Of a stretch of 12,227 nucleotides of DNA, positions 1-11,822 are shown piece by piece (the first letter of the stretch is position 1; every line of letters starts with the position of its first letter). Both the position numbers and the translations under genes were made by a program. Source of the stretch: a virus (lineage: Duplodnaviria; Heunggongvirae; Uroviricota; Caudoviricetes); IMG/VR virus record IMGVR_UViG_2671180903_000014, positions 1-12,227 of that record; one strand, 5' to 3'. The notes beneath the pieces are model-generated. The model had not been told where the DNA came from. It saw only the letters and a program-made list of their open reading frames with translations, and ran no database searches.

Positions 1-1461
1 ATGAAAAAATTACTGCATCTTTTTTTCCCGCTCTCGCTGCGGGTACGTTTTCTGTTAGCAACGGCAGCAGTAGTATTGGTGCTTTCGCTTGCCTACGGAA
101 TGGTTGCGCTGATCGGTTATAGCGTCAGTTTCGATAAAACCACGTTTCGGCTGTTACGTGGCGAGAGCAATCTGTTCTATACCCTTGCGAAGTGGGAAAA
201 CAATAAGTTGCATGTCGAGTTACCCGAAAATATCGACAAGCAAAGCCCCACCATGACGCTAATTTATGATGAGAACGGGCAGCTTTTATGGGCGCAACGT
301 GACGTGCCCTGGCTGATGAAGATGATCCAGCCTGACTGGCTGAAATCGAATGGTTTTCATGAAATTGAAGCGGATGTTAACGATACCAGCCTCTTGCTGA
401 GTGGAGATCATTCTATACAGCAACAGTTGCAGGAAGTGCGGGAAGATGATGACGACGCGGAGATGACCCACTCGGTGGCGGTAAACGTCTACCCGGCAAC
501 ATCGCGGATGCCAAAGTTAACCATTGTGGTGGTGGATACCATTCCGGTGGAGCTAAAAAGTTCCTATATGGTCTGGAGCTGGTTTATCTATGTGCTCTCA
601 GCCAATCTGCTGTTAGTGATCCCGCTGCTGTGGGTCGCCGCCTGGTGGAGTTTACGCCCCATCGAAGCCCTGGCAAAAGAAGTCCGCGAACTGGAAGAAC
701 ATAACCGCGAATTGCTCAATCCAGCCACAACGCGAGAACTGACCAGTCTGGTACGAAACCTGAACCGACTGTTAAAAAGTGAACGCGAACGTTACGACAA
801 ATATCGTACGACGCTCACCGACCTGACCCATAGTCTGAAAACGCCACTGGCGGTGCTGCAAAGTACGCTGCGTTCTCTGCGTAGTGAGAAGATGAGCGTC
901 AGTGATGCTGAGCCGGTAATGCTGGAGCAAATCAGCCGCATTTCACAGCAAATTGGCTACTACCTGCATCGTGCCAGTATGCGCGGCGGGACATTGCTTA
1001 GCCGCGAGCTGCATCCGGTCGCCCCACTGCTGGACAATCTCACCTCGGCGCTGAACAAAGTGTATCAACGCAAAGGGGTCAATATCTCTCTCGATATTTC
1101 GCCAGAGATCAGCTTTGTCGGTGAGCAGAACGATTTTGTCGAGGTGATGGGCAACGTGCTGGATAATGCCTGTAAATATTGCCTCGAGTTTGTCGAAATA
1201 TCTGCAAGGCAAACAGACGAGCATCTCTATATTGTGGTCGAGGATGATGGCCCCGGTATTCCCTTAAGCAAGCGAGAGGTCATTTTCGACCGTGGTCAAC
1301 GGGTTGATACTTTACGCCCTGGGCAAGGTGTAGGGCTGGCGGTAGCCCGCGAAATCACCGAGCAGTATGAGGGTAAAATCGTCGCCGGAGAGAGCATGCT
1401 GGGCGGTGCGCGGATGGAGGTGATTTTTGGTCGCCAGCATTCTGCGCCGAAAGATGAATAA
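1..1461 (+). CDS. phoQ: Sensor histidine kinase PhoQ of the PhoP/PhoQ two-component system
   Basis: 486-aa ORF with N-terminal transmembrane segment, periplasmic acidic patch EDDDDAE, second transmembrane segment, HAMP region, H-box [12 protein letters not shown] and ATPase motifs (DNACKY, DDGPGI, GQGVGL); matches enterobacterial PhoQ from memory. Confidence 0.95.
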
Positions 1462-1972
1462 ATATGTCCTTTTATCACCACAGCAAGGCAACCAATTGAT
1501 TTAATTAAACAACTCACACTGCAAAAAGTGCTAAAAACAGCAAATTGACTACACCATTAACTACACCGTTCGGTGCACTGTATGAAACAACGTTGAACAA
1601 ATAGACACAAGAAATATACAGGCGGGTAATCTTTCCAGGGGGAAGCGCACCAATTCATGAGGGGCGTTAATGTCGATATGGGGATCCCCATAACGGGGCT
1701 ACCAGATTTTTTTTCCGGTTAACTGTTAATCAGGCTGGTGGGCTTTACCTGTTCGGTAGGTGTTATGATTATCGTAATACCTTTCCCCCAATGGGGTAAA
1801 AGCTCCAACCGTAACGATGTTCGTTATGGTTGCCTTGATGGTCTGAGTGGTCATTTTGACCATTCAGCCAATGACCTTAATCAGAATTTTTCGCTAAAAA
1901 ATGACGTTGGCCACGTCATCCGGAAAGCACAAAATCACGTCGATTTTTAATGAACGGTTAAACCGTCTTTTT

Positions 1973-2007
1973 GTCACGGTGTGTCACTGGTTGTCACTCT
2001 CCGTCAC
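1973..2007. repeat. Four direct copies of (T)GTCAC spaced exactly 10 bp apart
   Basis: GTCAC at 1973, 1983, 1993 and 2003, in non-coding DNA downstream of phoQ; resembles tandem arm-type recombinase sites (lambda Int arm consensus contains AGTCAC) or another phased binding array. Confidence 0.6.
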
Positions 2008-2096
2008 GATTGAGGTGGTGGACATTCTGCCCGACCGCGCATTTTTGCGCTATCGGGAATATCAAACAGTTACCGCGCCGACTTCCTCAAATTGAG

Positions 2097-2239
2097 GTTT
2101 CCGAAAATATCAGCGGGTTAGCGATTAAGCTGACGAGTAATTAAACTGCGAAAATTTCGTAGTTTGTGACTATCTGAAAGATAGTCGGTTGTTCCGGCCT
2201 CAGCCGTTGGCTGTTTCCGAAAATATCAGTAGGTTAGGC
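2097..2239. repeat. Pair of ~26-bp direct repeats (GTTTCCGAAAATATCAG..GGTTAG) 115 bp apart
   Basis: 2097-2124 and 2212-2239 differ at 2-3 positions; palindromes lie between them (GACTATCT-gaa-AGATAGTC at 2169-2187; CCAAAGCTCA-aaaa-TGAGCTTTGG at 2240-2263). Confidence 0.6.
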
Positions 2240-2277
2240 CAAAGCTCAAAAATGAGCTTTGGAACAATATCAACAAG

Positions 2278-2559
2278 TTACCGCCGTAACCGCTCCGGCT
2301 TCTTCCAGTGGTACGTAATTTTCTCCGTTTCCCGATACAGTGCCACGCGGCGATTGTAGGCCAGCATTTCAAGAACGCGGATCCGTATGTTGCGCATATC
2401 CACATCATTAAGCTGGATACCATCACGGCGCATCACCTCAGCAACAACACGCGCATAATTTTCGGCTGTCACGCTGTCCGGCTGCGTGGCCTGTTCGTCA
2501 GTCTGCTGGCTGATTCCACCAGCACGGCGGATTAATCCCAGTATTTCGGCTTCTGTCAT
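2278..2559 (-). CDS. Hypothetical 93-aa protein
   Basis: ATG at 2559 with upstream GGGTG; charged, protein-like composition; the overlapping plus-strand ORF looks like antisense. No family recognised. Confidence 0.4.
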   Translation of the reverse strand: MTEAEILGLIRRAGGISQQTDEQATQPDSVTAENYARVVAEVMRRDGIQLNDVDMRNIRIRVLEMLAYNRRVALYRETEKITYHWKKPERLRR

Positions 2560-2592
2560 TGTGCACCCATCGTTCTGATTGTCTGGTGTCGT

Positions 2593-2795
2593 CGGGTCCT
2601 TCCTGGAATTATGGACCCGTTACGGGGCGGCGACCTCGCGGTTTTTATCTGTTTATGAAAATTTTCCGGCAAAAGTCAGATCCGTTCTTCTTCTCTGTAA
2701 CAGACTGTTTAACAATGAAAATATTAAAAAAAGAAAGGATCTGACACGAGGCATTTTAGCCAGAAAATGCCATTATCAGATCCTTTCTCATTTTT
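2593..2795 (+). other. Lambda-type cos site 'cos-A' (cosQ, cosN, cosB) in plus orientation
   Basis: GGGTCCTTCC..GTTACG|GGGCGGCGACCT|CGCGGTTTTT..TTATGAAAATTTTCCGG..CCGTTCTTCTTC closely follows the lambda right-end/left-end junction as recalled; the 12-nt cohesive-end sequence is at 2625-2636. Three R-site-like repeats GATCC(G/T)TTCT follow (2681-2695 plus, 2730-2745 inverted, 2777-2789 plus), with an A/T-rich IHF-like stretch between the first two. Confidence 0.8.
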
Positions 2796-2815
2796 GTTCA
2801 ATAATTGCGCGTCTG

Positions 2816-3358
2816 TTACTCGCCTTTCTTCTGTAGCAACTTTTCCGGTACGTTTCCGGTTGTTTCTTTCAAGTAATCAGCCAGTATCTGTGGGAGGTTG
2901 TCGGCAACTCTGGCACTGGCATTACAGGCTTTAACCACTTCCCTTTTAAGCCTATCCAGCATGGCGGGGGTAATCTGTGGGAAGCTCCTTTGCATAGTAA
3001 GCGGGAGGCTGTCCATGATTGATGAAATCTGACTCGCCAGCTTTGAAAGCGCGTACAGGCAAAACTCAGTATCAATCACGTCACCGCGATCGCGCTCGTT
3101 TTTAAGTTCCTGCGCCTCCGCCTGTGCTGTCAGTAATCTGATCCTGACTCGTAAGAGTTCATCATCATCAATATCGCCTTTGTCGTTTGTAAGCTGGCTA
3201 ATTGCATTGTTAACCCTATTGTCTATCACGCTGGCAACATCATAAAACGCCTCACGGCCTTTACGTTCAACGGGAGTCACTCCCCACTTGTCGAACGCTG
3301 TCGCACTTACACGGCAGCTTTTCGCCATGTTTTTTTTGTTCATCAGGTGCGATTTCAT
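2816..3358 (-). CDS. Terminase small subunit, lambda Nu1-like
   Basis: Residues LLTAQAEAQELKNERDRGDVIDTEFCLYALSKLASQISSIMDSLPLTMQRSFP align with lambda Nu1 (LTRAQADAQELKNARDSAEVVETAFCTFVLSRIAGEIASILDGLPLSVQRRFP); N-terminus NKK..W..G..PV matches the Nu1 DNA-binding region. Start may be ATG 3358 or ATG 3343. Confidence 0.85.
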   Translation of the reverse strand: MKSHLMNKKNMAKSCRVSATAFDKWGVTPVERKGREAFYDVASVIDNRVNNAISQLTNDKGDIDDDELLRVRIRLLTAQAEAQELKNERDRGDVIDTEFCLYALSKLASQISSIMDSLPLTMQRSFPQITPAMLDRLKREVVKACNASARVADNLPQILADYLKETTGNVPEKLLQKKGE

Positions 3359-3399
3359 TAATACACCAACTTAATTACTGCTTCAGGTTGGTGTATTGT

Positions 3400-3534
3400 T
3401 TGCATCTTTCCCTTTTTATTCATAAAGATAGATCAAACAACGAAACCACCACCCCCCCCCTGAAAAGGCTCATAAATAGCGAAAAACCGCTAGGTCGCCG
3501 CCCCGTAACGGGCCATAATTCCAGGAAGGACCCG
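3400..3534 (-). other. Second lambda-type cos site 'cos-B' (cosQ, cosN, degenerate cosB) in minus orientation
   Basis: Minus strand reads GGGTCCTTCCTGGAATTATGGCCCGTTACG|GGGCGGCGACCT|AGCGGTTTTTCGCTATTTATGA and then diverges, including a G9 run; cohesive-end sequence at 3492-3503. The 53-bp stretch 3482-3534 is an inverted repeat of 2593-2646 with one mismatch and one 1-bp indel. Confidence 0.75.
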
Positions 3535-3535
3535 T

Positions 3536-3557
3536 AAAAAAGCCGGATTTCTCCGGC
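3536..3557 (-). terminator. Rho-independent terminator after the 137-aa gene
   Basis: Minus strand GCCGGAGAAATCCGGC hairpin followed by TTTTTT; 6 bp past the stop of the 137-aa ORF. Confidence 0.7.
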
Positions 3558-3563
3558 CTTGTC

Positions 3564-3977
3564 TCAGATGGTTTTCAGTATGCGATCGATGTCGCCGTCA
3601 TCGCCCTGGTTTCTGCCATCGTATGCCATGCCAGCTGATACGGCTTGCGGGCTGTGCATGTCCATAAAGTTTTCAAAGGCTGCGGTAAGTTCCGGCGCAA
3701 CCTTCGGACGTTCCTGCTCTATGGTCATGCTAAGGATGCTTTTAGCCGTACCAACATCGATACAAGGCACGTTTGCCATTGCACGCAACAGCGGCTGATA
3801 GTCTTTATGCTCATGAAGCGCCATAATCGCATCAGCGCGCGGCTTGTCCTGCTCTTCCAGTTTGTTTAGTTGATATACGGCCTCATAGGTTGATAAACCT
3901 CTGTCAGCCATTGCCCGCGCTTCGACTTTAAATTTACTCGCCAGCGGTAGCGTCATGATGCTTTCATTCGTTGCCAT
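3564..3977 (-). CDS. Hypothetical 137-aa acidic protein, last gene of the capsid operon
   Basis: Strong RBS (AGGGGGA) before ATG 3977; 12 bp after the gpD-like stop; followed by a terminator. No family recognised; not lambda FI or W by recalled sequence. Confidence 0.55.
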   Translation of the reverse strand: MATNESIMTLPLASKFKVEARAMADRGLSTYEAVYQLNKLEEQDKPRADAIMALHEHKDYQPLLRAMANVPCIDVGTAKSILSMTIEQERPKVAPELTAAFENFMDMHSPQAVSAGMAYDGRNQGDDGDIDRILKTI

Positions 3978-3989
3978 CGTTCCCCCTGC

Positions 3990-4325
3990 TTATCGGGCCA
4001 GCGGCTGAACGGATACGCCGGAACCCGCAAAGGCGGCGCATTTTTTCGCATCGGTGTCGACGCTCTCAGGCCAGTTAACGGCGGCAATATTGAATATCCC
4101 CGTCTTGTAACACTGTGCTGATTTCTGCTTTGACGTGCCCACAGGGTACGAGGTCAGATAAACAGCCTTGCCAGATTCCTGACCATCCCACGGCTTAAAC
4201 TCGCCATTGTCTGCCAGCATCAGCGGGGTAAATTCCTGAATAACGCCAGCATCAGCGGCAAAATGTACCAACGTCGTGGATACCTGCTGACTGCCTGCAA
4301 ATAACTCAATGTATGGAGTGTCCAT
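3990..4325 (-). CDS. Head decoration protein, lambda gpD family
   Basis: 111 aa; TPLML, WDG, YKTGIF, WPE and AFAG motifs align with lambda gpD (TPLML..WDG..YKSGTF..WPE..AFAG); RBS GGGGGGA. Confidence 0.85.
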   Translation of the reverse strand: MDTPYIELFAGSQQVSTTLVHFAADAGVIQEFTPLMLADNGEFKPWDGQESGKAVYLTSYPVGTSKQKSAQCYKTGIFNIAAVNWPESVDTDAKKCAAFAGSGVSVQPLAR

Positions 4326-4337
4326 AGAATCCCCCCG

Positions 4338-5393
4338 TTAACCAATTTTGACGGTAACAAATTTGCGAATATCTGCCGGTACCGGCTGCGGTGCACTGTG
4401 TGTCTGCACGTACTCAATCGCCGGATCGCCGTCCTCAATCCAGTTTTTCGGGTAAAACATGTTTTGTGTTGCGCCCGTTCTTACCGCTTCCTGATCCATT
4501 ATCGCACCATAGGCCACCAGCCCTTTATTGTTGGTGTTACCCAGGACCAGCAAATCAGGCTCAAGGAAATATTTTTCGGTACCATCGCTGTCAGTGTATT
4601 TGCCGGAATAGACGATAAGGGCCAGATCACCAAGATAGCCTTTAAAGCTCACCACTTCGCCCAGGTTTTTACAGGCCAGTTCGGCGGCGGATTCTGAACC
4701 ACGGGAAAGATCGTACAGCTCACGGAATTTTTTAAAGCTGCCTAATGTGCGCCATACCTCAGCGCCCATAATCATGACGTTTGCGGGGCAACCAGCCTGA
4801 TCAGCATAAAGCTCGATGTCATAGATTGGGTCGTGCATGTCTTTATCCTGCTCGGACCATTTTTTACCCTTGGCCTGCTCTATGATGCAGTTTTCCGGTA
4901 TTTTCCAGTCGATTTCATAGCGTTCTATGCCTTCGCCCTCAATGATGTTTTTTCCGGTCGTTACCGCATTCACCGCCAGCCATTCCACGCGTGCCTTAAT
5001 GGCGTTTATCTGGCGGCGCATGTTGCCAGTAATCAGGCGCATACGGCGATAGGTAGGGTCGTTAAGCTGTGCCGGATCTTCTCCAGCCATGCGCATGATG
5101 GTTTTCGTTGGATCGATTTCGTGCTTTGGCTTCATGTAGCCAGGTTTGATTGTGCTGGTTTCGTACCCTTTATCGCGCTGAACCTGGCTACCCACCATAG
5201 GCGAACAAAACGCCGACATGGTGACTTCTTCAATGTCCAGGGTATCCAGCATGATGTTTTGCGTGCTGAATGTCGCCACGTTCGGGAAAAACAGCGTGGT
5301 AAACAGAGGGCTGAATTTAAAATCCGCAATATCCCCGCGATTCAGGTACATGAAAAGCTGGTTAGTGTTAAGTGCCGTTGCTTTGCCTGCCAT
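4338..5393 (-). CDS. Major capsid protein, lambda gpE family
   Basis: 351 aa; collinear with lambda gpE (FKF.PLF..LFF, PGY.KPKHE, DP.YRR.R, RDK..DP..DIE.YA, YKG..GD.A.VYSG, VLGNT, YPKNW, GDPA.E); RBS GGGGGTGA. Confidence 0.9.
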   Translation of the reverse strand: MAGKATALNTNQLFMYLNRGDIADFKFSPLFTTLFFPNVATFSTQNIMLDTLDIEEVTMSAFCSPMVGSQVQRDKGYETSTIKPGYMKPKHEIDPTKTIMRMAGEDPAQLNDPTYRRMRLITGNMRRQINAIKARVEWLAVNAVTTGKNIIEGEGIERYEIDWKIPENCIIEQAKGKKWSEQDKDMHDPIYDIELYADQAGCPANVMIMGAEVWRTLGSFKKFRELYDLSRGSESAAELACKNLGEVVSFKGYLGDLALIVYSGKYTDSDGTEKYFLEPDLLVLGNTNNKGLVAYGAIMDQEAVRTGATQNMFYPKNWIEDGDPAIEYVQTHSAPQPVPADIRKFVTVKIG

Positions 5394-5599
5394 TATTCAC
5401 CCCCATAATTTTTATGCATCCCAAGCGCCGCAAGTAAATAAGAGCGTACAAGTGAACCTATCGACGGCTCCGGCGTCATCAGCGGATCCAGTCCAGCCGC
5501 AACGCCAGCTTCATAGTTTTTTTTGTGGCGCTGCTTGAGCACCTCCACGATTTCGGGGCTTATGTACACCGAAACACCGCCTTTTTTCTCTTCAGCCAT
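5393..5599 (-). CDS. Hypothetical 68-aa protein, first gene of the capsid operon
   Basis: ATG at 5599 preceded by AAGAGGAA; its stop overlaps the capsid start codon (TAATG), suggesting translational coupling. No family recognised. Confidence 0.45.
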   Translation of the reverse strand: MAEEKKGGVSVYISPEIVEVLKQRHKKNYEAGVAAGLDPLMTPEPSIGSLVRSYLLAALGMHKNYGGE

Positions 5600-5633
5600 A
5601 GTAAGAAATTCCTCTTCGACTAAAAAAATCATA

Positions 5634-5684
5634 ACTGGATGTTTATCCAGTCCTGATTATAATCAGAATTGCATTTTATGCAAT
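5634..5684 (-). promoter_or_regulatory. Sigma70-like promoter overlapped by three adjacent palindromic operators
   Basis: Minus-strand -35 TTGCAT (5683-5678), 16-bp spacer, -10 TATAAT (5661-5656). Palindromes: ACTGGAT-gttt-ATCCAGT (5634-5651), CTGATTATAATCAG (5653-5666), ATTGCAT-ttt-ATGCAAT (5668-5684). Confidence 0.55.
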
Positions 5685-5764
5685 GATATTGAGTTATGTT
5701 GCAAATTATGAAATGATTATCCCGATCACGAACGCCAGTGCATCCAAAAACCTCATATGCAAAA

Positions 5765-5830
5765 GCCCGATAAGAACCCTCTGACCTTATCGGGCTTTTT
5801 TTGGGCGCAAAAAAGCCGGATTGCTCCGGC
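5765..5830. terminator. Tandem terminators between the 74-aa gene and the capsid promoter
   Basis: Hairpin GCCCGATAAG..CTTATCGGGC with T7 on the plus side and A4 on the other (5765-5802), then minus-strand GCCGGAGCAATCCGGC plus T6 (5809-5830). Confidence 0.65.
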
Positions 5831-5850
5831 TATGTGTGCTGTGTGCTGGC

Positions 5851-6075
5851 TCAGTCTCTGATCTCTTTCAGAAATTCTATCAATGCATCTATCTGTTCAG
5901 GATTTACCGCCAGCATTTCACCGGATAGAGCACATCTCACAAAACCATGCTGATCCTTTTCAATCAGTGCGCCCGTCTCCAGGAATGCGCGGTAATCATT
6001 GATGCTCATCGTCTCCATGTTGTCAGCATGGTATTTATCACGCTGTTTTAATATCTCATCAAATTTCATCGGCAT
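5851..6075 (-). CDS. Hypothetical 74-aa protein, monocistronic between terminators
   Basis: ATG at 6075 preceded by AGAGGAAAAA; terminators on both sides. No family recognised; only one Cys, so not an Ogr/Delta zinc finger. Confidence 0.5.
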   Translation of the reverse strand: MPMKFDEILKQRDKYHADNMETMSINDYRAFLETGALIEKDQHGFVRCALSGEMLAVNPEQIDALIEFLKEIRD

Positions 6076-6171
6076 TGTTTTTTTCCTCTGTTGTGTCTGT
6101 TTGTTTCAGATAGTAACTATGCCTGACCGTGACGAAAACCCGGTAATGCGCCATACCGTTTCAACTGGTGC

Positions 6172-6194
6172 AAAAAAAGCCGGATTTCTCCGGC
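6172..6194 (-). terminator. Rho-independent terminator after the PerC-like gene
   Basis: Minus strand GCCGGAGAAATCCGGC followed by T7; near-identical to the terminators at 3536-3557 and 5809-5830. Confidence 0.7.
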
Positions 6195-6201
6195 TGTTTG
6201 A

Positions 6202-6474
6202 TTAGCTGTCCTGGTAATTGCGCCATATTTCATCACCAGCACCATCTATACCCATTTCGGCATAAGTGCGATCGACTGCCTTTTTCAGGTCTCCGAAATT
6301 ATCCGGCGGCTCCGGTGCCCTCTGTGCCTTCCTTGAACATTCCAGCCGTCGCATCGTGATGTGATGCCGTTCCTTGTCTGTCTCCACCAGCTGCATGACT
6401 TCACCCCATCGCGCCGCCGCCCTCCGGTAAAAGCCTTTCGCCTCCAGTTCCTCCGCTATGCGGTCATGTACCAT
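6202..6474 (-). CDS. Small PerC-family-like regulator (about 90 aa)
   Basis: Start taken at ATG 6474 (MVHDRIAEELEAKGFYRRAAARWGEVM), 11 nt after the SSB stop with GGGGGTG as RBS; the A..LE..G.YRRAA.RW motif resembles PerC-family proteins from memory. The longer 130-aa ORF call would overlap SSB. Confidence 0.45.
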   Translation of the reverse strand: MVHDRIAEELEAKGFYRRAAARWGEVMQLVETDKERHHITMRRLECSRKAQRAPEPPDNFGDLKKAVDRTYAEMGIDGAGDEIWRNYQDS

Positions 6475-6484
6475 CGTCACCCCC

Positions 6485-6895
6485 TCAGAACGAAATATCA
6501 TCACCGTAAGAGTCATCGCCTCCCGCTGGTGGCTGATTACCCTGTGTGCCTGTGGTTTTGCGTCTGTTCCCGCCTGGACGTGCCGCGCGGGCACTGATTA
6601 CGCTGTCTGCGATAACCTGCCAGCCCTGCCGCGTTTCTCCGTTCTGTCCGGTCCACTGGCTTACCTGCATCGTGCCGGATACGCTGGCAACATCGCCTTT
6701 TTGATGTTTAGCCAGGAAGTCGGCCTGTTTGCCAAATGCGATGACCGATAACCATAACGTCGCCTGTCCGTCCTGTGCCTGGCTGCATGGCAAAGATACC
6801 GCCATACGCGCCAGCGTCATCGGTGTGCCCTTGCTGGTCTGTTTTACCTGCGGGTCGTCCACCAGCCGCCCGTAAGCGGCTATCTGTGCCGTCAT
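6485..6895 (-). CDS. Single-stranded DNA-binding protein, SSB-like
   Basis: 136 aa; OB-fold-like N-terminal region, Gly/Pro/Gln-rich linker and acidic C-terminal tip GDDISF (compare E. coli SSB DDDIPF). Confidence 0.65.
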   Translation of the reverse strand: MTAQIAAYGRLVDDPQVKQTSKGTPMTLARMAVSLPCSQAQDGQATLWLSVIAFGKQADFLAKHQKGDVASVSGTMQVSQWTGQNGETRQGWQVIADSVISARAARPGGNRRKTTGTQGNQPPAGGDDSYGDDISF

Positions 6896-7143
6896 AATTC
6901 CACCTCTCCGGTTTTAACGTTGATGGTTGTTACCTGTTCCGCTTCGGCAATCTCCCGTTCTGTCAGCGTGGCAAAGTTTGCCGCCGCCGTGGTCATGAAT
7001 GCGCTTATCAGGTCGGGATGTTCCTTCGCGTATCCTTCCCGCGTGTGGCGGTCTATCGTTCTGATTGCCACCTTTAAGGTGTGCTCAGTCATGTCTAACG
7101 CTTTATATTTTGGCTCTGTTCTGTCTCTGCGTTTTTGGGTCAT
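6892..7143 (-). CDS. Hypothetical small protein between the origin and ssb
   Basis: The longest ORF begins at a GTG (7173) inside the iteron array; ATG 7143 or ATG 7092 are more plausible starts. Stop overlaps the ssb start (ATGA). Confidence 0.35.
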   Translation of the reverse strand: MTQKRRDRTEPKYKALDMTEHTLKVAIRTIDRHTREGYAKEHPDLISAFMTTAAANFATLTEREIAEAEQVTTINVKTGEVEL

Positions 7144-7149
7144 TTCTCG

Positions 7150-7350
7150 CAACCTCTCACTTTTTCGCCTCACTTTTTCAAGCGTCTCACTTCGTCGCAG
7201 TTGGGATTTTCGGTTTTTCTATGTGTGTGTTTCATAAGTATTTTTTTACCCCTCACTTTTGAGGATGTATACAGGTCGAAAAGTGAGGGAGAGCGGGCTA
7301 ATTTTGGCCCTCTTTCTATCCCCCTCGCTTTTGCTCCTCACTTTTATAGC
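7150..7350. repeat. Iteron array with a central A/T-rich stretch; candidate replication origin
   Basis: Seven copies of CCTCAC(T/G)TTT (7156, 7169, 7186, 7250, 7323, 7337 direct; 7279 inverted) flanking an A/T-rich stretch at 7201-7248, immediately 3' of the rep gene. Confidence 0.6.
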
Positions 7351-8743
7351 GGCGCTACATCATCCCCATCGATACGAATAACCCCATCTTTTTCCAGCTT
7401 GTACAGCCAGCGCCGGAAGTTTTTCATTTCATACCCCAGCTTTTTCATGTCATCACGTAACAGCGGGATCGTGCACTTGTCGCCGTTCTGTGTGCGTGAA
7501 CGGATGCACCCCCATAGCGCGGTATGGTTTTCCGTCTTGTTCCCTGCCTCCTCGATGCGCTCCAGTTCAACAGGAGGGCGCGGATCATCCACCACCACCA
7601 GCGACGTGATTAATTCACCGTCAGCGTCGGTAAAAAGCTCCACCACGCGTAAGTCATATGCGGCTTCTTTGAGTTCCTCCGCGTCCTTCATTTTGGTGCA
7701 TGAGATAACCAGCGCTTCGCTTCCTGCGTCCTCCCTGCGTATCCGGTATTCAGCATCCAGCGAAGCACGAAATGCACTGGAACCGCGCGCGCCTTTCGTC
7801 TCATCCTTGCCGGAATGGTGAACCACCAGCACCGTGGCCCCTGTGCGTCGTTTCAGTTCGTCACAACCACGGATAAACGCCCCATATCACGGGAATCATT
7901 TTCATCATTCCCACCAAAGCAACGCGCCAGCGTATCCAGAATAATCATGCGTACAGGTTTACCCGTTTCCCGCTCCACCTGACGGGCAGCGATAACCATT
8001 TCATCAACATCAAGCGGGGCAGCCGGAAAGATGGGGCGGTTTACCAGATACAGATTTTTCACCTGCTCATCGTGCACAACCTCCCAGGCTTTTACACGAC
8101 GCGGAACACCTATACCGCCTTCACCAACCACATAGAGAACCGCACCATGTGCAACCCTGCGGCCTCCCCACTGGCGACCAGTGGCAACATGGCACGCCCA
8201 CGATCCGGCAAGGAATGATTTATAGGACCCGCTAGCCCCGTATATGCTGCATAGCGATACCGCCGGAATAATCCCCTTAACCACGTAATCCAGTTGCGTG
8301 TCGTATCCGGTAGATCCAACGCTCATCGGTAGCGTGGTTTTTCGCTGGTGGTTTTTTTCTTCCGCCGGCTCTTTCCCGCGCACCCGTTCCAGGTATTCGC
8401 GCCAGTTCTCCCGCATATGGCTGTGCATCCCTTCGGGGTAATAATTCGCATCAGTTACACCCGCCGCCGCCAGCTTGTGCGCAATGGCATTAATATTTGA
8501 TGGCCTGATGTGGCCTGCCTTGTACAGCCGGACACAATAGCGCCCCTCGTCGATGATTCTCAGGTCTGCCAGTTCATCCAGTTGATCATCAGCCAGCACA
8601 ACGGGAGGCACATTATCGCCAGCCAGTCGCCCGTCCTGTTCCTGCCACTGTTTCGCATGTGCCCAGGCATCACTACCCGCAAAAATAATGACTTCGGTCA
8701 TCTTGTCGTAAGGCTGTTTTTTTAAGTTCGGTGCGCTTTTCAT
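7344..8743 (-). pseudogene. RepA-like AAA ATPase (RecA-fold replication helicase) split by a frameshift
   Basis: The upstream ORF (8743-7853) ends ..ILDTLARCFGGNDENDSRDMG; the downstream ORF continues in another frame with AFIRGCDELKRRTGATVLVVHHSGKDETKG. Joined, they give the typical DEN..M......L....G..VL.VHH..K motif. The frames meet in the C4/G4 run at 7880-7883; one extra G would restore a ~470-aa protein. Confidence 0.75.
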
Positions 8744-8761
8744 TTCTTGCCCCTGAATCCG

Positions 8762-9208
8762 TTAAAATCTGGCCTGAACTGCCGGAGGCGTAGGCCATTC
8801 AATATCTGGCGCACTGGAGGTATCAACCAGCTCCAGTGCATCCAGATAATCCAGCCACAAATTATATTGCGCCAGTTCCTCACCTTTCAGACGACCAATA
8901 GCGGCTTTACCGGGCCATTGCTTACTGTTCATGTATTCGTTGGCCTGGTTAATTAGTAGCTGTCTTTCTGATTCAGTAATTTCAATAAGCTCTTCATGCG
9001 TGGGTGGAGGAATATCTGCCCACGCAGGCAGCCCATCATCTCCGGCAATACGGATTTTTCCTTGTGGCGGTTCAGCCATAAACTCACTGATAATATTTTG
9101 ATTTACTTCCTTAGCGTCTGATAAATCCCATCCCTCTGATTTATATTTATCAATCATATCCACAGGGAAAAAAGCATTATGCCTTGCGCTATAAACATAT
9201 TCGTTCAT
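8762..9208 (-). CDS. Tail fibre assembly protein (Tfa)
   Basis: N-terminus MNEYVYSARHNAFFP and C-terminus ..VDTSSAPDIEWPTPP match Tfa proteins (lambda Tfa ends ..VDTSTAPDIEWP); RBS AGGGTGA before ATG 9208. The longest ORF starts at a GTG (9217). Confidence 0.85.
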   Translation of the reverse strand: MNEYVYSARHNAFFPVDMIDKYKSEGWDLSDAKEVNQNIISEFMAEPPQGKIRIAGDDGLPAWADIPPPTHEELIEITESERQLLINQANEYMNSKQWPGKAAIGRLKGEELAQYNLWLDYLDALELVDTSSAPDIEWPTPPAVQARF

Positions 9209-9228
9209 ATAAATCACCCTGAATAAAA

Positions 9229-9642
9229 TTACTCACCAACAGCCCACCAACTGTAATTCATCGATACCGTGTCGCTGGTTGATGACGTTCTGTAAGCAGA
9301 ATTAAAGCCGGTTAACGTTGGGCCTTCTGCAGTCATCACGAACCCTCGCCCAGCGCCTAAAGGCGCACCGCCATCACCAGAATGAGTAAGCATGGCGCAG
9401 TCCGCTTTTTTGGGGAAAGGGATGCTGAATGTAATTCTCATTGTTTGCGTCGATAATGTCGGCGTAACCGCACCACGACCATATTGCAGGATTTTCCCGT
9501 TGGGTAATTTCATCCATCCATCACCACTGGCAAAAGAGGCCATGTCCGGTATCTGATTTTCCCCTGTCCCCACATCCCGTTTTGCCGCTTCTCCCAAACC
9601 AACGTTTATGAAAATGCAGAAATAACGAGCAAATGGCATCAT
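9229..9642 (-). pseudogene. Tail-fibre C-terminal variable segment without its constant N-terminal part (alternate cassette of an invertible segment)
   Basis: Lies between the crossover site and tfa, reading away from pin, as for the alternate Sv' cassette of the Mu G segment and the e14 P segment; no tail-fibre N-terminal domain upstream. Confidence 0.5.
9589..9614. other. Candidate Pin crossover site (pix-like)
   Basis: TTCTCCCAAACCAACGTTTATGAAAA matches the recalled hixL site TTCTTGAAAACCAAGGTTTTTGATAA at 20 of 26 positions; sits just upstream of pin inside the tail-fibre fragment. Confidence 0.55.
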
Positions 9643-9668
9643 TCCTGCTTTTGTCAGGGGGATCTACC

Positions 9669-10223
9669 ATGCTTATTGGCTATGTACGCGTATCAACAAA
9701 TGACCAGAACACAGATCTACAACGTAATGCGCTGAACTGTGCAGGATGCGAGCTGATTTTTGAAGACAAGATAAGCGGTACAAAGTCCGAAAGGCCGGGA
9801 CTGAAAAAACTGCTCAGGACATTATCGGCAGGTGACACGCTGGTGGTCTGGAAACTGGACCGGCTGGGGCGCAGTATGCGGCATCTTGTCGTGCTGGTGG
9901 AGGAGTTGCGCGAACGAGGCATCAACTTTCGTAGTCTGACGGATTCAATTGATACCAGTACCCCAATGGGGCGCTTTTTCTTTCATGTGATGGGTGCCCT
10001 GGCTGAAATGGAGCGTGAACTGATTGTTGAAAGAACAAAAGCTGGACTGGAAGCTGCTCGCGCACAGGGACGAATTGGTGGACGTCGTCCCAAACTTACA
10101 CCAGAACAATGGGAACAGGCCGGACGATTAATTGCATCAGGAGTTCCTCGCCAGAAGGTGGCGATTATCTATGATGTTGGTGTGTCAACTTTGTATAAGA
10201 GGTTTCCTGCAGGGGATAAATAA
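9669..10223 (+). CDS. pin: Serine DNA invertase Pin (Hin/Gin/Cin family)
   Basis: MLIGYVRVSTNDQNTDLQRNAL..VVWKLDRLGRS..GINFRSLTDSIDTS.PMGRFFFHVMGALAEMERELI..GRIGGR with C-terminal HTH; RBS AGGGGGA before ATG 9669. The listed ORF start at 9633 is an upstream extension. Confidence 0.92.
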   Translation: MLIGYVRVSTNDQNTDLQRNALNCAGCELIFEDKISGTKSERPGLKKLLRTLSAGDTLVVWKLDRLGRSMRHLVVLVEELRERGINFRSLTDSIDTSTPMGRFFFHVMGALAEMERELIVERTKAGLEAARAQGRIGGRRPKLTPEQWEQAGRLIASGVPRQKVAIIYDVGVSTLYKRFPAGDK

Positions 10224-10329: not shown

Positions 10330-11163
10330 ATGCATGTTTTTGATAATAATGGAATTGAACTGAAAGCTGAGTGTTCGATAGGTGAAGAGGATGGTGTTTA
10401 TGGTCTAATCCTTGAGTCGTGGGGGCCGGGTGACAGAAACAAAGATTACAATATCGCTCTTGATTATATCATTGAACGGTTGGTTGATTCTGGTGTATCC
10501 CAAGTCGTAGTATATCTGGCGTCATCATCAGTCAGAAAACATATGCATTCTTTGGATGAAAGAAAAATCCATCCTGGTGAATATTTTACTTTGATTGGTA
10601 ATAGCCCCCGCGAGATACGCTTGAAGATGTGTGGTTATCAGGCTTATTTTAGTCGTACGGGGAGAAAGGAAATTCCTTCCGGCAATAGAACGAAACGAAT
10701 ATTGATAAATGTTCCAGGTATTTATAGTGACAGTTTTTGGGCGTCTATAATACGTGGAGAACTATCAGAGCTTTCACAGCCTACAGATGATGAATCGCTT
10801 CTGAATATGAGGGTTAGTAAATTAATTAAGAAAACGTTGGGTCAACCCGAGGGCTCCAGGAAACCAGTTGAGGTAGAAAGACTACAAAAAGTTTATGTCC
10901 GAGACCCGATGGTAAAAGCTTGGATTTTACAGCAAAGTAAAGGTATATGTGAAAACTGTGGTAAAAATGCTCCGTTTTATTTAAATGATGGAAACCCATA
11001 TTTGGAAGTGCATCATGTAATTCCCCTGTCTTCAGGTGGTGCTGATACAACAGATAACTGTGTTGCCCTTTGTCCGAATTGTCATAGAGAATTGCACTAT
11101 AGTAAAAATGCAAAAGAACTAATCGAGATGCTTTACGTTAATATAAACCGATTACAGAAATAA
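10330..11163 (+). CDS. mcrA: Type IV modification-dependent restriction endonuclease McrA (HNH)
   Basis: 277 aa; matches e14 McrA from memory, with C-terminal HNH motif HHVIPLSSGG..NCVALCPNCH; A/T-rich context typical of acquired DNA. Confidence 0.92.
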   Translation: MHVFDNNGIELKAECSIGEEDGVYGLILESWGPGDRNKDYNIALDYIIERLVDSGVSQVVVYLASSSVRKHMHSLDERKIHPGEYFTLIGNSPREIRLKMCGYQAYFSRTGRKEIPSGNRTKRILINVPGIYSDSFWASIIRGELSELSQPTDDESLLNMRVSKLIKKTLGQPEGSRKPVEVERLQKVYVRDPMVKAWILQQSKGICENCGKNAPFYLNDGNPYLEVHHVIPLSSGGADTTDNCVALCPNCHRELHYSKNAKELIEMLYVNINRLQK

Positions 11164-11562: not shown

Positions 11563-11584
11563 TACCACATGTGTTAAATATTAT

Positions 11585-11613
11585 AACGGGCGTATAACAC
11601 GCCCGTTGTTTTT
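11585..11613 (+). terminator. Rho-independent terminator after the icd remnant
   Basis: AACGGGCGT-ataac-ACGCCCGTT hairpin followed by GTTTTT, 23 bp past the stop. Confidence 0.6.
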
Positions 11614-11822
11614 ATAAATATGTTAACCGTTATAAAATAACGTATCAAAAGTCAAGTGAACACATTTCAAATATCAATTTGATCGTATTGGTCTGGTGAT
11701 TATTTATGGGGAGCAATAAAAAGACAGTATTAATCATCCATAGGGATAGTCTCTGCACTTTTATTTCCATTATGCTAATGCCTTACTGAATTATGAAGCA
11801 TTTTTTAAGCTCCCAACTTTAG

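What the first reader, a model, noticed from the sequence alone, without database searches (positions are those of the whole stretch)
2278..8743. Compact satellite-like module: capsid and decoration homologues, TerS and Rep-origin without portal, protease, large terminase, tails or lysis
All genes lie on one strand in the order rep, iteron origin, ssb, PerC-like regulator, insulated small gene, regulated operon (68-aa protein, gpE-like capsid, gpD-like decoration, 137-aa protein), cos, terS, cos. Lambda's order (Nu1, A, W, B, C, Nu3, D, E) is not preserved and the obligatory partners of E and D are absent. That pattern, with intact RBSs, coupling and terminators, looks like a designed minimal element that supplies its own capsid shell and packaging specificity while borrowing the rest from a cos-type helper, rather than like random decay. 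I do not recognise it as a described satellite family.
Basis: inference. Interest (0 to 1): 0.85.

Follow-up and report, generated by a model that had tools for sequence, protein, structure and literature searches.

The report
Truncated copy of known E. coli PICI
This is the replication, capsid-gene and DNA-packaging arm of an already catalogued E. coli phage satellite (a phage-inducible chromosomal island of the EcCICFT073/EcCIRM12579 type); this copy has lost its integrase arm and has a broken replication gene, so it is a real but known element.

Summary
All real genes between 2278 and 8743 lie on the minus strand in the stated order. There are two exact lambda cosN 12-mers around a Nu1-type terS, six iterons after rep, and no portal, protease, terL, tail or lysis genes.

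It is a satellite that depends on a cos-type helper, but it is a described one. Window 2266-8765 is 99.0% identical to EcCIRM12579, a PICI listed in Fillol-Salom et al. 2018 (Table S1, ycfD-phoQ site, att GGACATATTT). It shares that site and 96-97% identical capsid, decoration and 137-aa proteins with the model island EcCICFT073.

It differs from EcCICFT073 in two places:
- The slot between the two inverted cos copies holds a full-length TerS plus three lambda-like cosB R repeats instead of rppA.
- Rep is a RepA-type helicase.

In EcCICFT073 the capsid and decoration genes did not cause the interference with lambda, and the DNA is packaged in full-size capsids. "Supplies its own shell" is therefore unsupported.

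This copy is damaged. The int-alpA arm is cut off at 8765/8766, where it joins an e14-like tail-fibre segment, and rep carries a 1-base frameshift.

Novelty: already known. Interest: low.

The parts
1460..1469 (-). att core GGACATATTT (right end of the island), overlapping the phoQ stop codon
   Evidence: Exact match. The same core and the ycfD-phoQ site are given for EcCICFT073 and EcCIRM12579 in Table S1 of PMC6092414.
1470..2277 (.). Non-coding right-end region of the island. It contains direct repeats (2097-2121 / 2213-2237 and 2058-2076 / 2266-2284) and a 210-bp stretch (1868-2077) absent from EcCIRM12579 and strain 95NR1.
   Evidence: Positions 1-1748 are 97.7% identical to the EcCICFT073 locus. 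No annotated genes lie here in relatives.
2278..2559 (-). 93-aa conserved hypothetical protein, the last gene of the island
   Evidence: phrog_1561 at 1e-55. 91% aa identity to the EcCICFT073 homologue.
2593..2669 (+). cos copy A: a cosQ-like box, exact lambda cosN (2625-2636), and a conserved stretch (CGCGGTTTTTATCTGTTTATGAAAATTTTCCGG) matching the ~33 nt that follow cosN in lambda. It reads opposite to the genes.
   Evidence: alignment with lambda cos, both EcCICFT073 cos copies and a CFT073 prophage cos.
2676..2788 (+). cosB-like array: three R-like repeats TCAGATCCKTTCT at 2676-2688 (+), 2732-2744 (-) and 2776-2788 (+), in the lambda R3/R2/R1 layout. Proposed TerS binding sites.
   Evidence: 3 matches against 0.35 expected. 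The alignment places the first repeat on lambda R3. The array lies inside the block that is not homologous to EcCICFT073.
2816..3358 (-). terS: 180-aa Nu1-family small terminase
   Evidence: Pfam Phage_Nu1 2e-23. phrog_57 3e-53. 35% identity to lambda Nu1 over residues 6-166 vs 3-180. Best phage match is N15 gp1 at 46%, and no phage exceeds 60%. No similarity to RppA.
3459..3534 (-). cos copy B: exact cosN at 3492-3503 on the coding strand, 134 nt upstream of terS as in lambda, but without the R-like repeats
3533..3562 (-). Terminator hairpin after the morphogenesis operon, one of three near-identical copies
   Evidence: Repeat family D1; sequence.
3564..3977 (-). 137-aa protein (c1501 homologue). 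Residues ~43-117 resemble the C-terminal repeat of the lambda Nu3/gpC scaffold.
   Evidence: 97% aa identity to EcCICFT073. phrog_53 (protease/scaffold C-terminus) 6e-9. Linked to Nu3 through P0041. hhalign against Nu3 gives probability 78%, E 1.8e-5.
3990..4325 (-). gpD-like head decoration protein (c1500 homologue)
   Evidence: Pfam HDPD 6e-17. 97% identity to c1500 and 34% to lambda gpD.
4338..5393 (-). gpE-like major capsid protein (c1499 homologue), full length
   Evidence: Pfam Phage_cap_E 2e-49. 96% identity to c1499 and 43% to lambda gpE. Best phage match is 47%. dN/dS against EcCICFT073 is 0.14.
5393..5599 (-). 68-aa protein (c1498 homologue), first gene of the operon; its stop overlaps the capsid start
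   Evidence: phrog_3255. 68% identity to EcCICFT073. The annotated start in relatives corresponds to 5599.
5806..6199 (-). Inserted cassette: the 74-aa gene (5851-6075) bracketed by duplicated terminators (5806-5835 and 6170-6199). It is absent from EcCICFT073.
   Evidence: No homology to L002 over 5843-6251. Repeat family D1. Terminator scan. phrog_1957. No defence-family hit.
6202..6474 (-). PerC-family protein (90 aa as annotated in relatives)
   Evidence: Pfam PerC 1e-42. 84% identity to EcCICFT073.
6485..6895 (-). Single-stranded DNA-binding protein
   Evidence: Pfam SSB 2e-16. 97% identity to EcCICFT073.
6892..7143 (-). 83-aa conserved hypothetical protein, translationally coupled to ssb
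   Evidence: phrog_1231. 73% identity to EcCICFT073. Annotated in relatives.
7155..7343 (-). Replication origin: two sets of AAGTGAGR iterons (7336, 7281 inverted, 7251 / 7185, 7168, 7155) flanking an A+T-rich spacer, directly 3' of rep
   Evidence: The same layout is described for E. coli PICI origins in PMC6092414 Fig. 2.
7344..8743 (-). rep, a RepA/AAA_25 helicase-type initiator, broken into 296-aa and 162-aa ORFs by a 1-base deletion in the G run at 7880-7883
   Evidence: Pfam AAA_25. phrog_2850 covers both halves. There is a single 1-nt difference from the intact 466-aa gene of strain 95NR1. The same allele occurs in 4 other loci.
8765..8766 (.). Rearrangement junction. Island sequence stops inside the 3' end of the DUF4222 gene and is joined to an e14-like tail-fibre-assembly gene.
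   Evidence: The junction is absent from all 5,426 complete E. coli genomes.

Best explanation
Window ~1460-8765 is the right-hand 7.3 kb of an 11.2-kb Gram-negative phage-inducible chromosomal island (PICI). It belongs to the EcCICFT073 lineage and is essentially the catalogued element EcCIRM12579, integrated between roxA (ycfD) and phoQ.

How the intact element works. These steps are inferred from experiments on EcCICFT073 and from the anatomy here; none was tested here.
1. A lambdoid helper phage triggers AlpA. Int then excises the island.
2. Rep binds the iterons just downstream of its own gene and replicates the circle into concatemers, with help from the island's SSB.
3. The island's Nu1-type TerS binds the island-specific R repeats (TCAGATCCKTTCT, three copies) next to a cosN/cosQ that is identical or near-identical to lambda's.
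4. Through its conserved C-terminal region, TerS recruits the helper's large terminase (gpA type). The terminase cuts at cosN and packages island DNA into helper-made heads. Tails and lysis also come from the helper.

This differs from EcCICFT073, where Rpp occupies the same cos-flanked slot and re-targets the helper's own TerS.

The operon of the 68-aa protein, gpE-like capsid, gpD-like decoration and Nu3-C-terminus-like 137-aa protein is conserved and under purifying selection. In the close relative its capsid and decoration genes did not cause the interference with lambda, and the literature reports PICI capsid genes as not required for transfer. Its role is unknown.

The copy in this window cannot run the cycle unaided. 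The int, alpA and Icd-like arm is missing: the element is cut 22 nt upstream of rep and joined to an e14-type invertible tail-fibre segment, most simply by a ~28-kb inversion. In addition, rep is frameshifted inside the helicase domain.
For: Identity and family:
- 99.0% nt identity over 2266-8765 to NC_017656.1, the coordinates of EcCIRM12579. That element is listed as a PICI with att GGACATATTT at ycfD-phoQ.
- The att core is found at 1460-1469.
- EcCICFT073 sits at the same site with the same gene order. Protein identities are capsid 96%, decoration 97%, 137-aa 97%, SSB 97%, PerC 84%.
- Intact relatives carry Int and AlpA (PF05930, 5e-17).
- The five PICI core components are given in PMC10085698.

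Packaging module:
- TerS is full length relative to lambda Nu1.
- There are two exact cosN copies and three R-like repeats in the lambda cosB layout.
- Homology with EcCICFT073 breaks exactly at the cos arms.

Origin and selection:
- Iterons lie in two sets around an AT-rich spacer, as described.
- dN/dS is 0.14 for the capsid gene.
- The capsid-decoration pair is full length in 598 genomes.

Damage in this copy:
- rep is frameshifted.
- The junction is documented.
Against: - No experiment exists for the TerS-type variant. The TerS-R repeat and TerS-helper TerL interactions are inferred from homology and layout only.
- The R repeats sit next to the cos copy that is inverted relative to terS, not the one upstream of it. 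The functional cos is therefore uncertain.
- In this window three defining parts (int, alpA, intact rep) are absent or broken.
- The inversion is inferred from gene order. The reciprocal junction was not seen.
Confidence: 0.9

Rival explanations
1. It is a minimal capsid-forming satellite. The gpE-like, gpD-like and Nu3-like proteins build or re-size a shell of the island's own, using helper portal and protease, so that ~11-kb monomers are packaged in small heads.
For: - The capsid and decoration genes are full length. They are under purifying selection (dN/dS 0.14 and 0.22).
- They are less than 50% identical to any phage capsid, so they are not a recent capture.
- They are intact in 598 genomes.
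- The adjacent 137-aa protein resembles the scaffold C-terminus.
- Capsid homologues cause size redirection in SaPIbov5, and this is suspected for PmCI172.
Against: - With lambda as helper, all DNA packaged from EcCICFT073 lysates was phage-sized, and deleting c1499 or c1500 did not relieve interference.
- PICI capsid genes are stated not to be required for transfer.
- There is no portal, protease or head-tail adaptor, which defined capsid-forming PICIs have.
Confidence: 0.15
2. It is a deletion remnant of an ordinary lambdoid prophage that happened to keep the capsid, decoration and small-terminase genes.
For: - The head and packaging genes belong to lambda families.
- cosN is identical to lambda's.
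- This copy is visibly rearranged and has a frameshift.
Against: - Homologous loci in 349 complete genomes are uniform ~11-kb islands with their own int, alpA and rep and no portal, protease or terL.
- The gene order is not lambda's.
- Capsid and TerS are at most 47% and 46% identical to any phage protein.
- The att site is reported as never used by prophages.
Confidence: 0.02
3. The capsid module is not for the island's own particles. It is either an anti-helper decoy (a capsid, decoration or scaffold-like protein that poisons helper head assembly with some phages) or a spare copy of the helper capsid gene, as proposed for helper-embedded PICIs that integrate into gene E.
For: - PICIs generally interfere with their helpers.
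- The 137-aa protein keeps only the scaffold C-terminal motif.
- PMC10111431 proposes a backup-copy role and notes that capsid genes are the commonest late gene in Gram-negative PICIs, present in 21 of 29.
Against: - Expressing each EcCICFT073 gene downstream of ori alone, only c1503 (rppA) blocked lambda.
- Deleting c1499 or c1500 did not restore lambda plaques.
- This island is not embedded in a helper capsid gene.
Confidence: 0.2

Closest known systems
EcCIRM12579, the same element as in O157:H7 EC4115/TW14359 (Fillol-Salom et al. 2018, Table S1)
   Same: 99.0% nt identity over window 2266-8765. Same ycfD-phoQ site, att core and gene order, including terS.
   Different: The window copy lacks int through DUF4222, carries a 1-nt frameshift in rep, and has a 210-bp difference in the non-coding right end.
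EcCICFT073, the model Gram-negative cos PICI (Fillol-Salom 2018, 2019)
   Same: Same att site. Two inverted lambda-type cos copies. The 68-aa, capsid, decoration and 137-aa operon is ~94% identical at the nt level. It also has SSB, PerC, the last 93-aa gene, and an iteron origin after rep.
   Different: The cos-flanked slot holds rppA (144 aa, binds helper TerS) there, and a full Nu1-type terS plus R repeats here. Rep is a 584-aa primase type there and a 466-aa RepA helicase type here. The 74-aa cassette is absent there.
pac-type SaPIs with their own TerS (SaPI1/SaPIbov1 type)
   Same: The logic is the same: the satellite encodes a TerS homologue that pairs with the helper TerL and recognises only satellite DNA (PMC6739421 discussion).
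   Different: They are Gram-positive, use headful (pac) packaging, have an unrelated TerS family, and need Ppi to block the phage TerS. No Ppi or Rpp homologue was found here.
SaPIbov5 Ccm and the PmCI172 capsid homologue
   Same: A satellite-encoded homologue of the helper major capsid protein.
   Different: Ccm demonstrably makes small capsids. The E. coli PICI capsid gene has shown no such effect with lambda.
Capsid-forming PICIs (EcCIEDL933)
   Same: An E. coli PICI backbone (int, alpA, rep) carrying head genes.
   Different: Capsid-forming PICIs carry portal, protease, head-tail connectors, HNH, terS and terL, and build complete heads. None of the portal, protease, connector or terL genes is present here.

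Membership tests
Gram-negative PICI (EcCICFT073 lineage; SatelliteFinder Type A) | Near-identity to a catalogued member at the family's own att site (ycfD-phoQ, core GGACATATTT) | tested here: met
   99.0% identity to EcCIRM12579. The att core is at 1460-1469.
Gram-negative PICI (EcCICFT073 lineage; SatelliteFinder Type A) | Tyrosine integrase at one end | tested here: not met
   Absent from the window, because the island is cut at 8765. Present in intact relatives. The window therefore holds part of a member, not a complete one.
Gram-negative PICI (EcCICFT073 lineage; SatelliteFinder Type A) | AlpA-type regulator next to int | tested here: not met
   Absent from the window. Relatives have PF05930 at 5e-17.
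Gram-negative PICI (EcCICFT073 lineage; SatelliteFinder Type A) | Primase/replicase gene with an iteron origin immediately 3' of it | tested here: met
   The AAA_25 Rep is followed by six iterons in two sets around an AT-rich spacer. Caveat: rep is frameshifted here.
Gram-negative PICI (EcCICFT073 lineage; SatelliteFinder Type A) | Capsid-morphogenesis gene (a capsid homologue) | tested here: met
   Phage_cap_E 2e-49, and 96% identity to c1499.
Gram-negative PICI (EcCICFT073 lineage; SatelliteFinder Type A) | Small terminase (or Rpp) and a packaging site | tested here: met
   Phage_Nu1 2e-23, and two exact cosN copies.
Gram-negative PICI (EcCICFT073 lineage; SatelliteFinder Type A) | Unidirectional transcription, with no tail, portal or lysis genes | tested here: met
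   All annotated genes are on one strand. Plus-strand ORFs have no family hits.
Gram-negative PICI (EcCICFT073 lineage; SatelliteFinder Type A) | Helper-dependent excision, replication, packaging and interference | not testable with these tools
   Shown experimentally only for EcCICFT073 (PMC6092414, PMC6739421).
Rpp-type cos PICI (EcCICFT073 in the strict sense) | Encodes an Rpp homologue that binds the helper TerS | tested here: not met
   No BLASTP similarity between any window protein and RppA. TerS has no match among PDB sequences at E<=0.01; the RppC structure was solved, but I did not confirm that it is in the searched copy. The slot holds a Nu1-type TerS.
Capsid-forming PICI | Portal, protease, head-tail connectors and terL | tested here: not met
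   None appear among the ORFs or in intact relatives. Definition taken.
P4-like satellite | psu-delta-sid operon, alpha primase, epsilon/Ash | tested here: not met
   No such families appear in the Pfam or PHROG scans of all the genes. Core list taken. cosN is the lambda 12-mer.
Defective lambdoid prophage | Homologous loci elsewhere carry portal, protease and terL in lambda order | tested here: not met
   349 genomes show the same compact island.

The most novel reading that the evidence does not exclude
The conserved operon of gpE-like capsid, gpD-like decoration and Nu3-C-terminus-like 137-aa protein may be a working head-remodelling module. It would act only with natural helpers other than lambda, for example by co-assembling with the helper portal and protease into small heads sized for one or two 11-kb genomes.

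Separately, the terS-plus-R-repeat cassette between the inverted cos copies may be the ancestral state from which rpp evolved by cassette replacement.
Probability: 0.2. Interest if true: 0.55.

Novelty: already known. Interest (0 to 1): 0.2.

Why it matters
As a discovery it matters little. The element type, its att site, its capsid and decoration genes and its double cos are in the 2018-2019 PICI papers, and this island is in their catalogue.

Three modest points are worth keeping:
1. The terS cassette is full length in 595 of 5,426 complete E. coli genomes, against 53 for the experimentally studied rppA cassette. The commoner packaging variant of this PICI lineage is therefore the unstudied one.
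2. Homology between the two variants breaks exactly at the inverted cos arms. The terS cassette also brings its own lambda-like R repeats. This bears on the question in PMC6739421 of where Rpp came from.
3. The 137-aa protein next to the capsid genes looks like the C-terminal motif of the lambda scaffold Nu3. This sharpens the unanswered question of what the capsid module does.

Tried and rejected
- **Other species.** A scan of genome contigs with the capsid protein found no relatives, so there is no cross-species survey.
- **Solved structures.** PDB sequence searches with TerS and the 137-aa protein found nothing useful.
- **Structure prediction.** The single-sequence AlphaFold model of the 137-aa protein was too poor to use (mean pLDDT 42). 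No fold search was run.
- **Deeper alignment.** The search of 1.8 billion representatives showed the 137-aa family is very narrow, with 8 hits. A deeper alignment was not possible.
- **Small ORFs.** NCBIfam, PADLOC and Rfam gave nothing for the small ORFs or the non-coding regions.
- **Reciprocal junction.** I tried to find it through the conserved 77-aa left-arm protein. That protein is too widespread and the exact sequence is unknown, so I abandoned the attempt.
- **Pin-mediated recombination at the junction.** I considered this as the cause of the 8765/8766 junction. Intact islands do have a hix-like palindrome (GTTAACCATGGTTTTC) at the breakpoint. However, no site within 8 mismatches of the e14 pix site exists in the island, the e14-side breakpoint lies at the tfa stop codon and not at a pix site, and the join is not precise. 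The mechanism is left open.
- **EcCIEDL933 as the identity.** Rejected, because that element is the capsid-forming PICI with portal and terL.

Full report
**Setting.** The window is E. coli chromosome. It begins with phoQ (1-1461, +). It ends with an e14-type prophage remnant and its neighbours: tail-fibre assembly gene 8762-9217 (-), tail-fibre C-terminal fragment 9229-9642 (-), pin 9633-10223 (+), mcrA 10330-11163 (+), icdC, ymgL and ycgX. The finding lies between these two.

**Observation.**
- The genes are rep (AAA_25), an 83-aa ORF, ssb, PerC, a 74-aa gene, then the 68-aa gene / gpE-like capsid (Phage_cap_E 2e-49) / gpD-like decoration (HDPD 6e-17) / 137-aa gene, then a Nu1-family terS (2e-23) and a 93-aa ORF.
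- Plus-strand ORFs match no phage family.
- The lambda cohesive-end sequence GGGCGGCGACCT occurs exactly twice in the element, at 2625-2636 (+) and 3492-3503 (-). Both copies lie in a ~79-nt inverted repeat that brackets terS.
- Six of the window's seven AAGTGAGR motifs (0.48 expected) lie in 7155-7343, directly after rep. They form two sets around an A+T-rich spacer.
- Three near-identical terminator hairpins close the PerC gene, the 74-aa gene and the capsid operon.

The description is confirmed, with four corrections:
1. rep is split into 296- and 162-aa ORFs by loss of one G from a run of five, at 7880-7883.
2. The cos copies are inverted relative to each other.
3. The element continues to the att core at 1460-1469.
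4. The left limit at 8765/8766 is a rearrangement junction.

**Identity.** The region matches 349 of 5,426 complete E. coli genomes over at least 80% of its length.
- In these genomes it is the right arm of an ~11-kb island between roxA (ycfD) and phoQ. The full order is int, AlpA-type regulator, Icd-like genes, five small ORFs, DUF4222, an intact 466-aa rep, and then the genes seen here.
- Table S1 of Fillol-Salom et al. 2018 (PMC6092414) lists this island as PICI EcCIRM12579 (NC_017656.1:1438155-1449376, 11.2 kb, att GGACATATTT, ycfD-phoQ), "same as" the island of O157:H7 EC4115. Window 2266-8765 is 99.0% identical to it.
- The model PICI EcCICFT073 occupies the same site with the same order. 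Its capsid (c1499), decoration (c1500), 137-aa (c1501) and SSB proteins are 96-97% identical to those here.
- The intact island has all five core components that SatelliteFinder uses for a 'Type A' PICI. That class is found almost only in E. coli.
- PMC10111431 notes that a major capsid gene is present in 21 of 29 reference Gram-negative PICIs.
- The family is therefore described.

**What differs from EcCICFT073.** DNA homology between the two islands is interrupted in three blocks.
- *Block 2669-3462.* This is exactly the interval between the inverted cos arms. EcCICFT073 has rppA here: a 144-aa protein that binds the helper's TerS and redirects it to the island.
  - This island instead has a 180-aa protein that aligns with lambda Nu1 from residue 3 to 180 at 35% identity. 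It is at most 46% identical to any phage TerS in 50,697 phage records.
  - The same block carries three copies of TCAGATCCKTTCT (+, -, +; 0.35 expected) just beyond cos copy A. In an alignment with lambda cos, the first copy falls on R3 (CGTTTCCGTTCT in lambda), and the orientation pattern mirrors R3/R2/R1.
  - cosQ, cosN and the adjacent ~33 nt are conserved with lambda in both copies. The R region is not.
- *Block 5843-6251.* This is the 74-aa gene between duplicated terminators, so it looks like an inserted cassette.
- *Block 7071-8378.* This covers the origin and most of rep. Only the first 125 residues of Rep resemble the EcCICFT073 primase, at 62% identity.

**Mechanism (inferred).** By analogy with EcCICFT073 and with lambda terminase, the intact island is excised and replicated after a lambdoid helper is induced.
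- Its TerS then binds its own R repeats and brings the helper's large terminase to a cosN that the enzyme can cut.
- Heads, tails and lysis are supplied by the helper.
- The logic resembles the SaPI TerS strategy described in PMC6739421, not the Rpp strategy.
- Among complete E. coli genomes, the terS cassette is full length in 595 and the rppA cassette in 53. The untested variant is therefore the commoner one.
- One uncertainty remains. The R repeats adjoin the cos copy that reads opposite to terS, whereas the copy upstream of terS lacks them. Which copy is used is open. In EcCICFT073 both copies function.

**The capsid module.** The capsid and decoration genes are full length and coupled.
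- They are under purifying selection (dN/dS 0.14 and 0.22 against EcCICFT073).
- They are intact in 598 genomes.
- The capsid protein is at most 47% identical to any phage capsid.
- The 137-aa protein has no listed function in the 2018 tables, and its family is very narrow.
  - It hits the C-terminal end of a protease/scaffold PHROG at 6e-9.
  - It is related to a 195-aa protein (P0041) made of three copies of a motif also found in lambda Nu3 residues 115-186.
  - A profile comparison with Nu3 gives probability 78% and E 1.8e-5.
  - I read it as a scaffold-C-terminus-like protein, with moderate confidence.
- Experiments on EcCICFT073 argue against a shell of the island's own. With lambda, all packaged DNA was phage-sized, and deleting c1499 or c1500 did not relieve interference. 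[quoted passage not shown]
- No later paper in the searchable library assigns the module a function. Its role is unknown. Size redirection with other helpers, helper interference, and a spare capsid gene all remain possible.

**State of this copy.** Island sequence ends at 8765, inside the 3' end of the DUF4222 gene and 22 nt upstream of the rep ATG. It is joined to the stop codon of a tail-fibre assembly gene.
- Homology to K-12 e14 begins exactly at the pix recombination site at 9589. Positions 8767-9587 are one half of a flipped invertible tail-fibre segment.
- phoQ-phoP-purB lie on the far side of the island (L003). The simplest account is therefore an inversion of about 28 kb between the island and e14, which would leave int-alpA next to roxA. 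This is inference, because the reciprocal junction was not seen.
- The junction is absent from all complete genomes. It recurs in assembly GCA_001283345.2, where the 822-bp segment is replaced by a single N, probably a collapsed repeat.
- The rep frameshift is a real allele. It occurs in four other loci, including islands that still have an integrase.
- This copy has no integrase, no AlpA and a broken initiator, so it should not be mobilisable as a unit.

**Verdict.** The satellite interpretation is right in kind, wrong about novelty, and unsupported on the capsid claim. Novelty: already known. Interest: 0.2.

Noticed in passing
window 8765-9614; L003 9950-10010: The island is fused to half of an e14-type invertible tail-fibre segment. 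K-12 homology starts exactly at the pix site (9589-9614). Intact islands have a hix-like palindrome, GTTAACCATGGTTTTC, at the breakpoint. A second assembly (GCA_001283345.2) has the same flanks but a single N in place of 8766-9587. Gene order implies a ~28-kb inversion spanning phoQ to icd and the left part of e14.
   Followed up: partly
window 7880-7883; L003-L006: The rep frameshift (G5 to G4) is shared by at least four other loci from NCBI, ENA and Logan. Two of them are islands that still carry an integrase (L004 and L005, the latter with a different left arm). It is therefore a circulating null allele and not a sequencing slip.
   Followed up: partly
window 2670-3458 compared with L002 7603-8275: In 5,426 complete E. 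coli genomes the terS cassette is full length in 595 and the studied rppA cassette in 53. The boundaries of non-homology coincide with the inverted cos arms, which suggests cassette exchange by recombination at cos.
   Followed up: partly
window 5806-6199: The 74-aa gene (phrog_1957, function unknown) sits between two copies of the same terminator and is missing from EcCICFT073. It looks like a moron-type insertion. It has no defence-system hit.
   Followed up: partly
L005 209-4362: A locus with the identical right arm and the same rep frameshift has a different left arm (a 413-aa integrase and a 409-aa Phage_ASH protein). The two arms of these islands therefore reassort.
   Followed up: no
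window 1868-2284: The non-coding right end differs from EcCIRM12579 and strain 95NR1 by a 210-bp stretch. It contains direct repeats (GTTTCCGAAAATATCAGNNGGTTAG twice, AATATCAANNAGTTACCGC twice) that could be integrase arm sites or regulator sites.
   Followed up: no
window 11567-11612: Relative to K-12, about 0.8 kb holding iraM and ymgK is absent between icdC and ymgL. The window sequence at the boundary aligns to both K-12 flanks, which suggests a ~46-nt direct repeat there.
   Followed up: no
window 11575-11723 (-): A weak match to the Hfq-binding sRNA family STnc150 (31 bits against a gathering score of 60, E 0.0018). It lies outside the island, next to ymgL.
   Followed up: no
window 6202-6594: The mechanical PerC ORF of 130 aa starts at a GTG inside ssb. 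The Pfam match and the RefSeq annotation both start at residue 41 (ATG at 6474, with a GGGGG ribosome-binding site), giving the 90-aa protein.
   Followed up: yes
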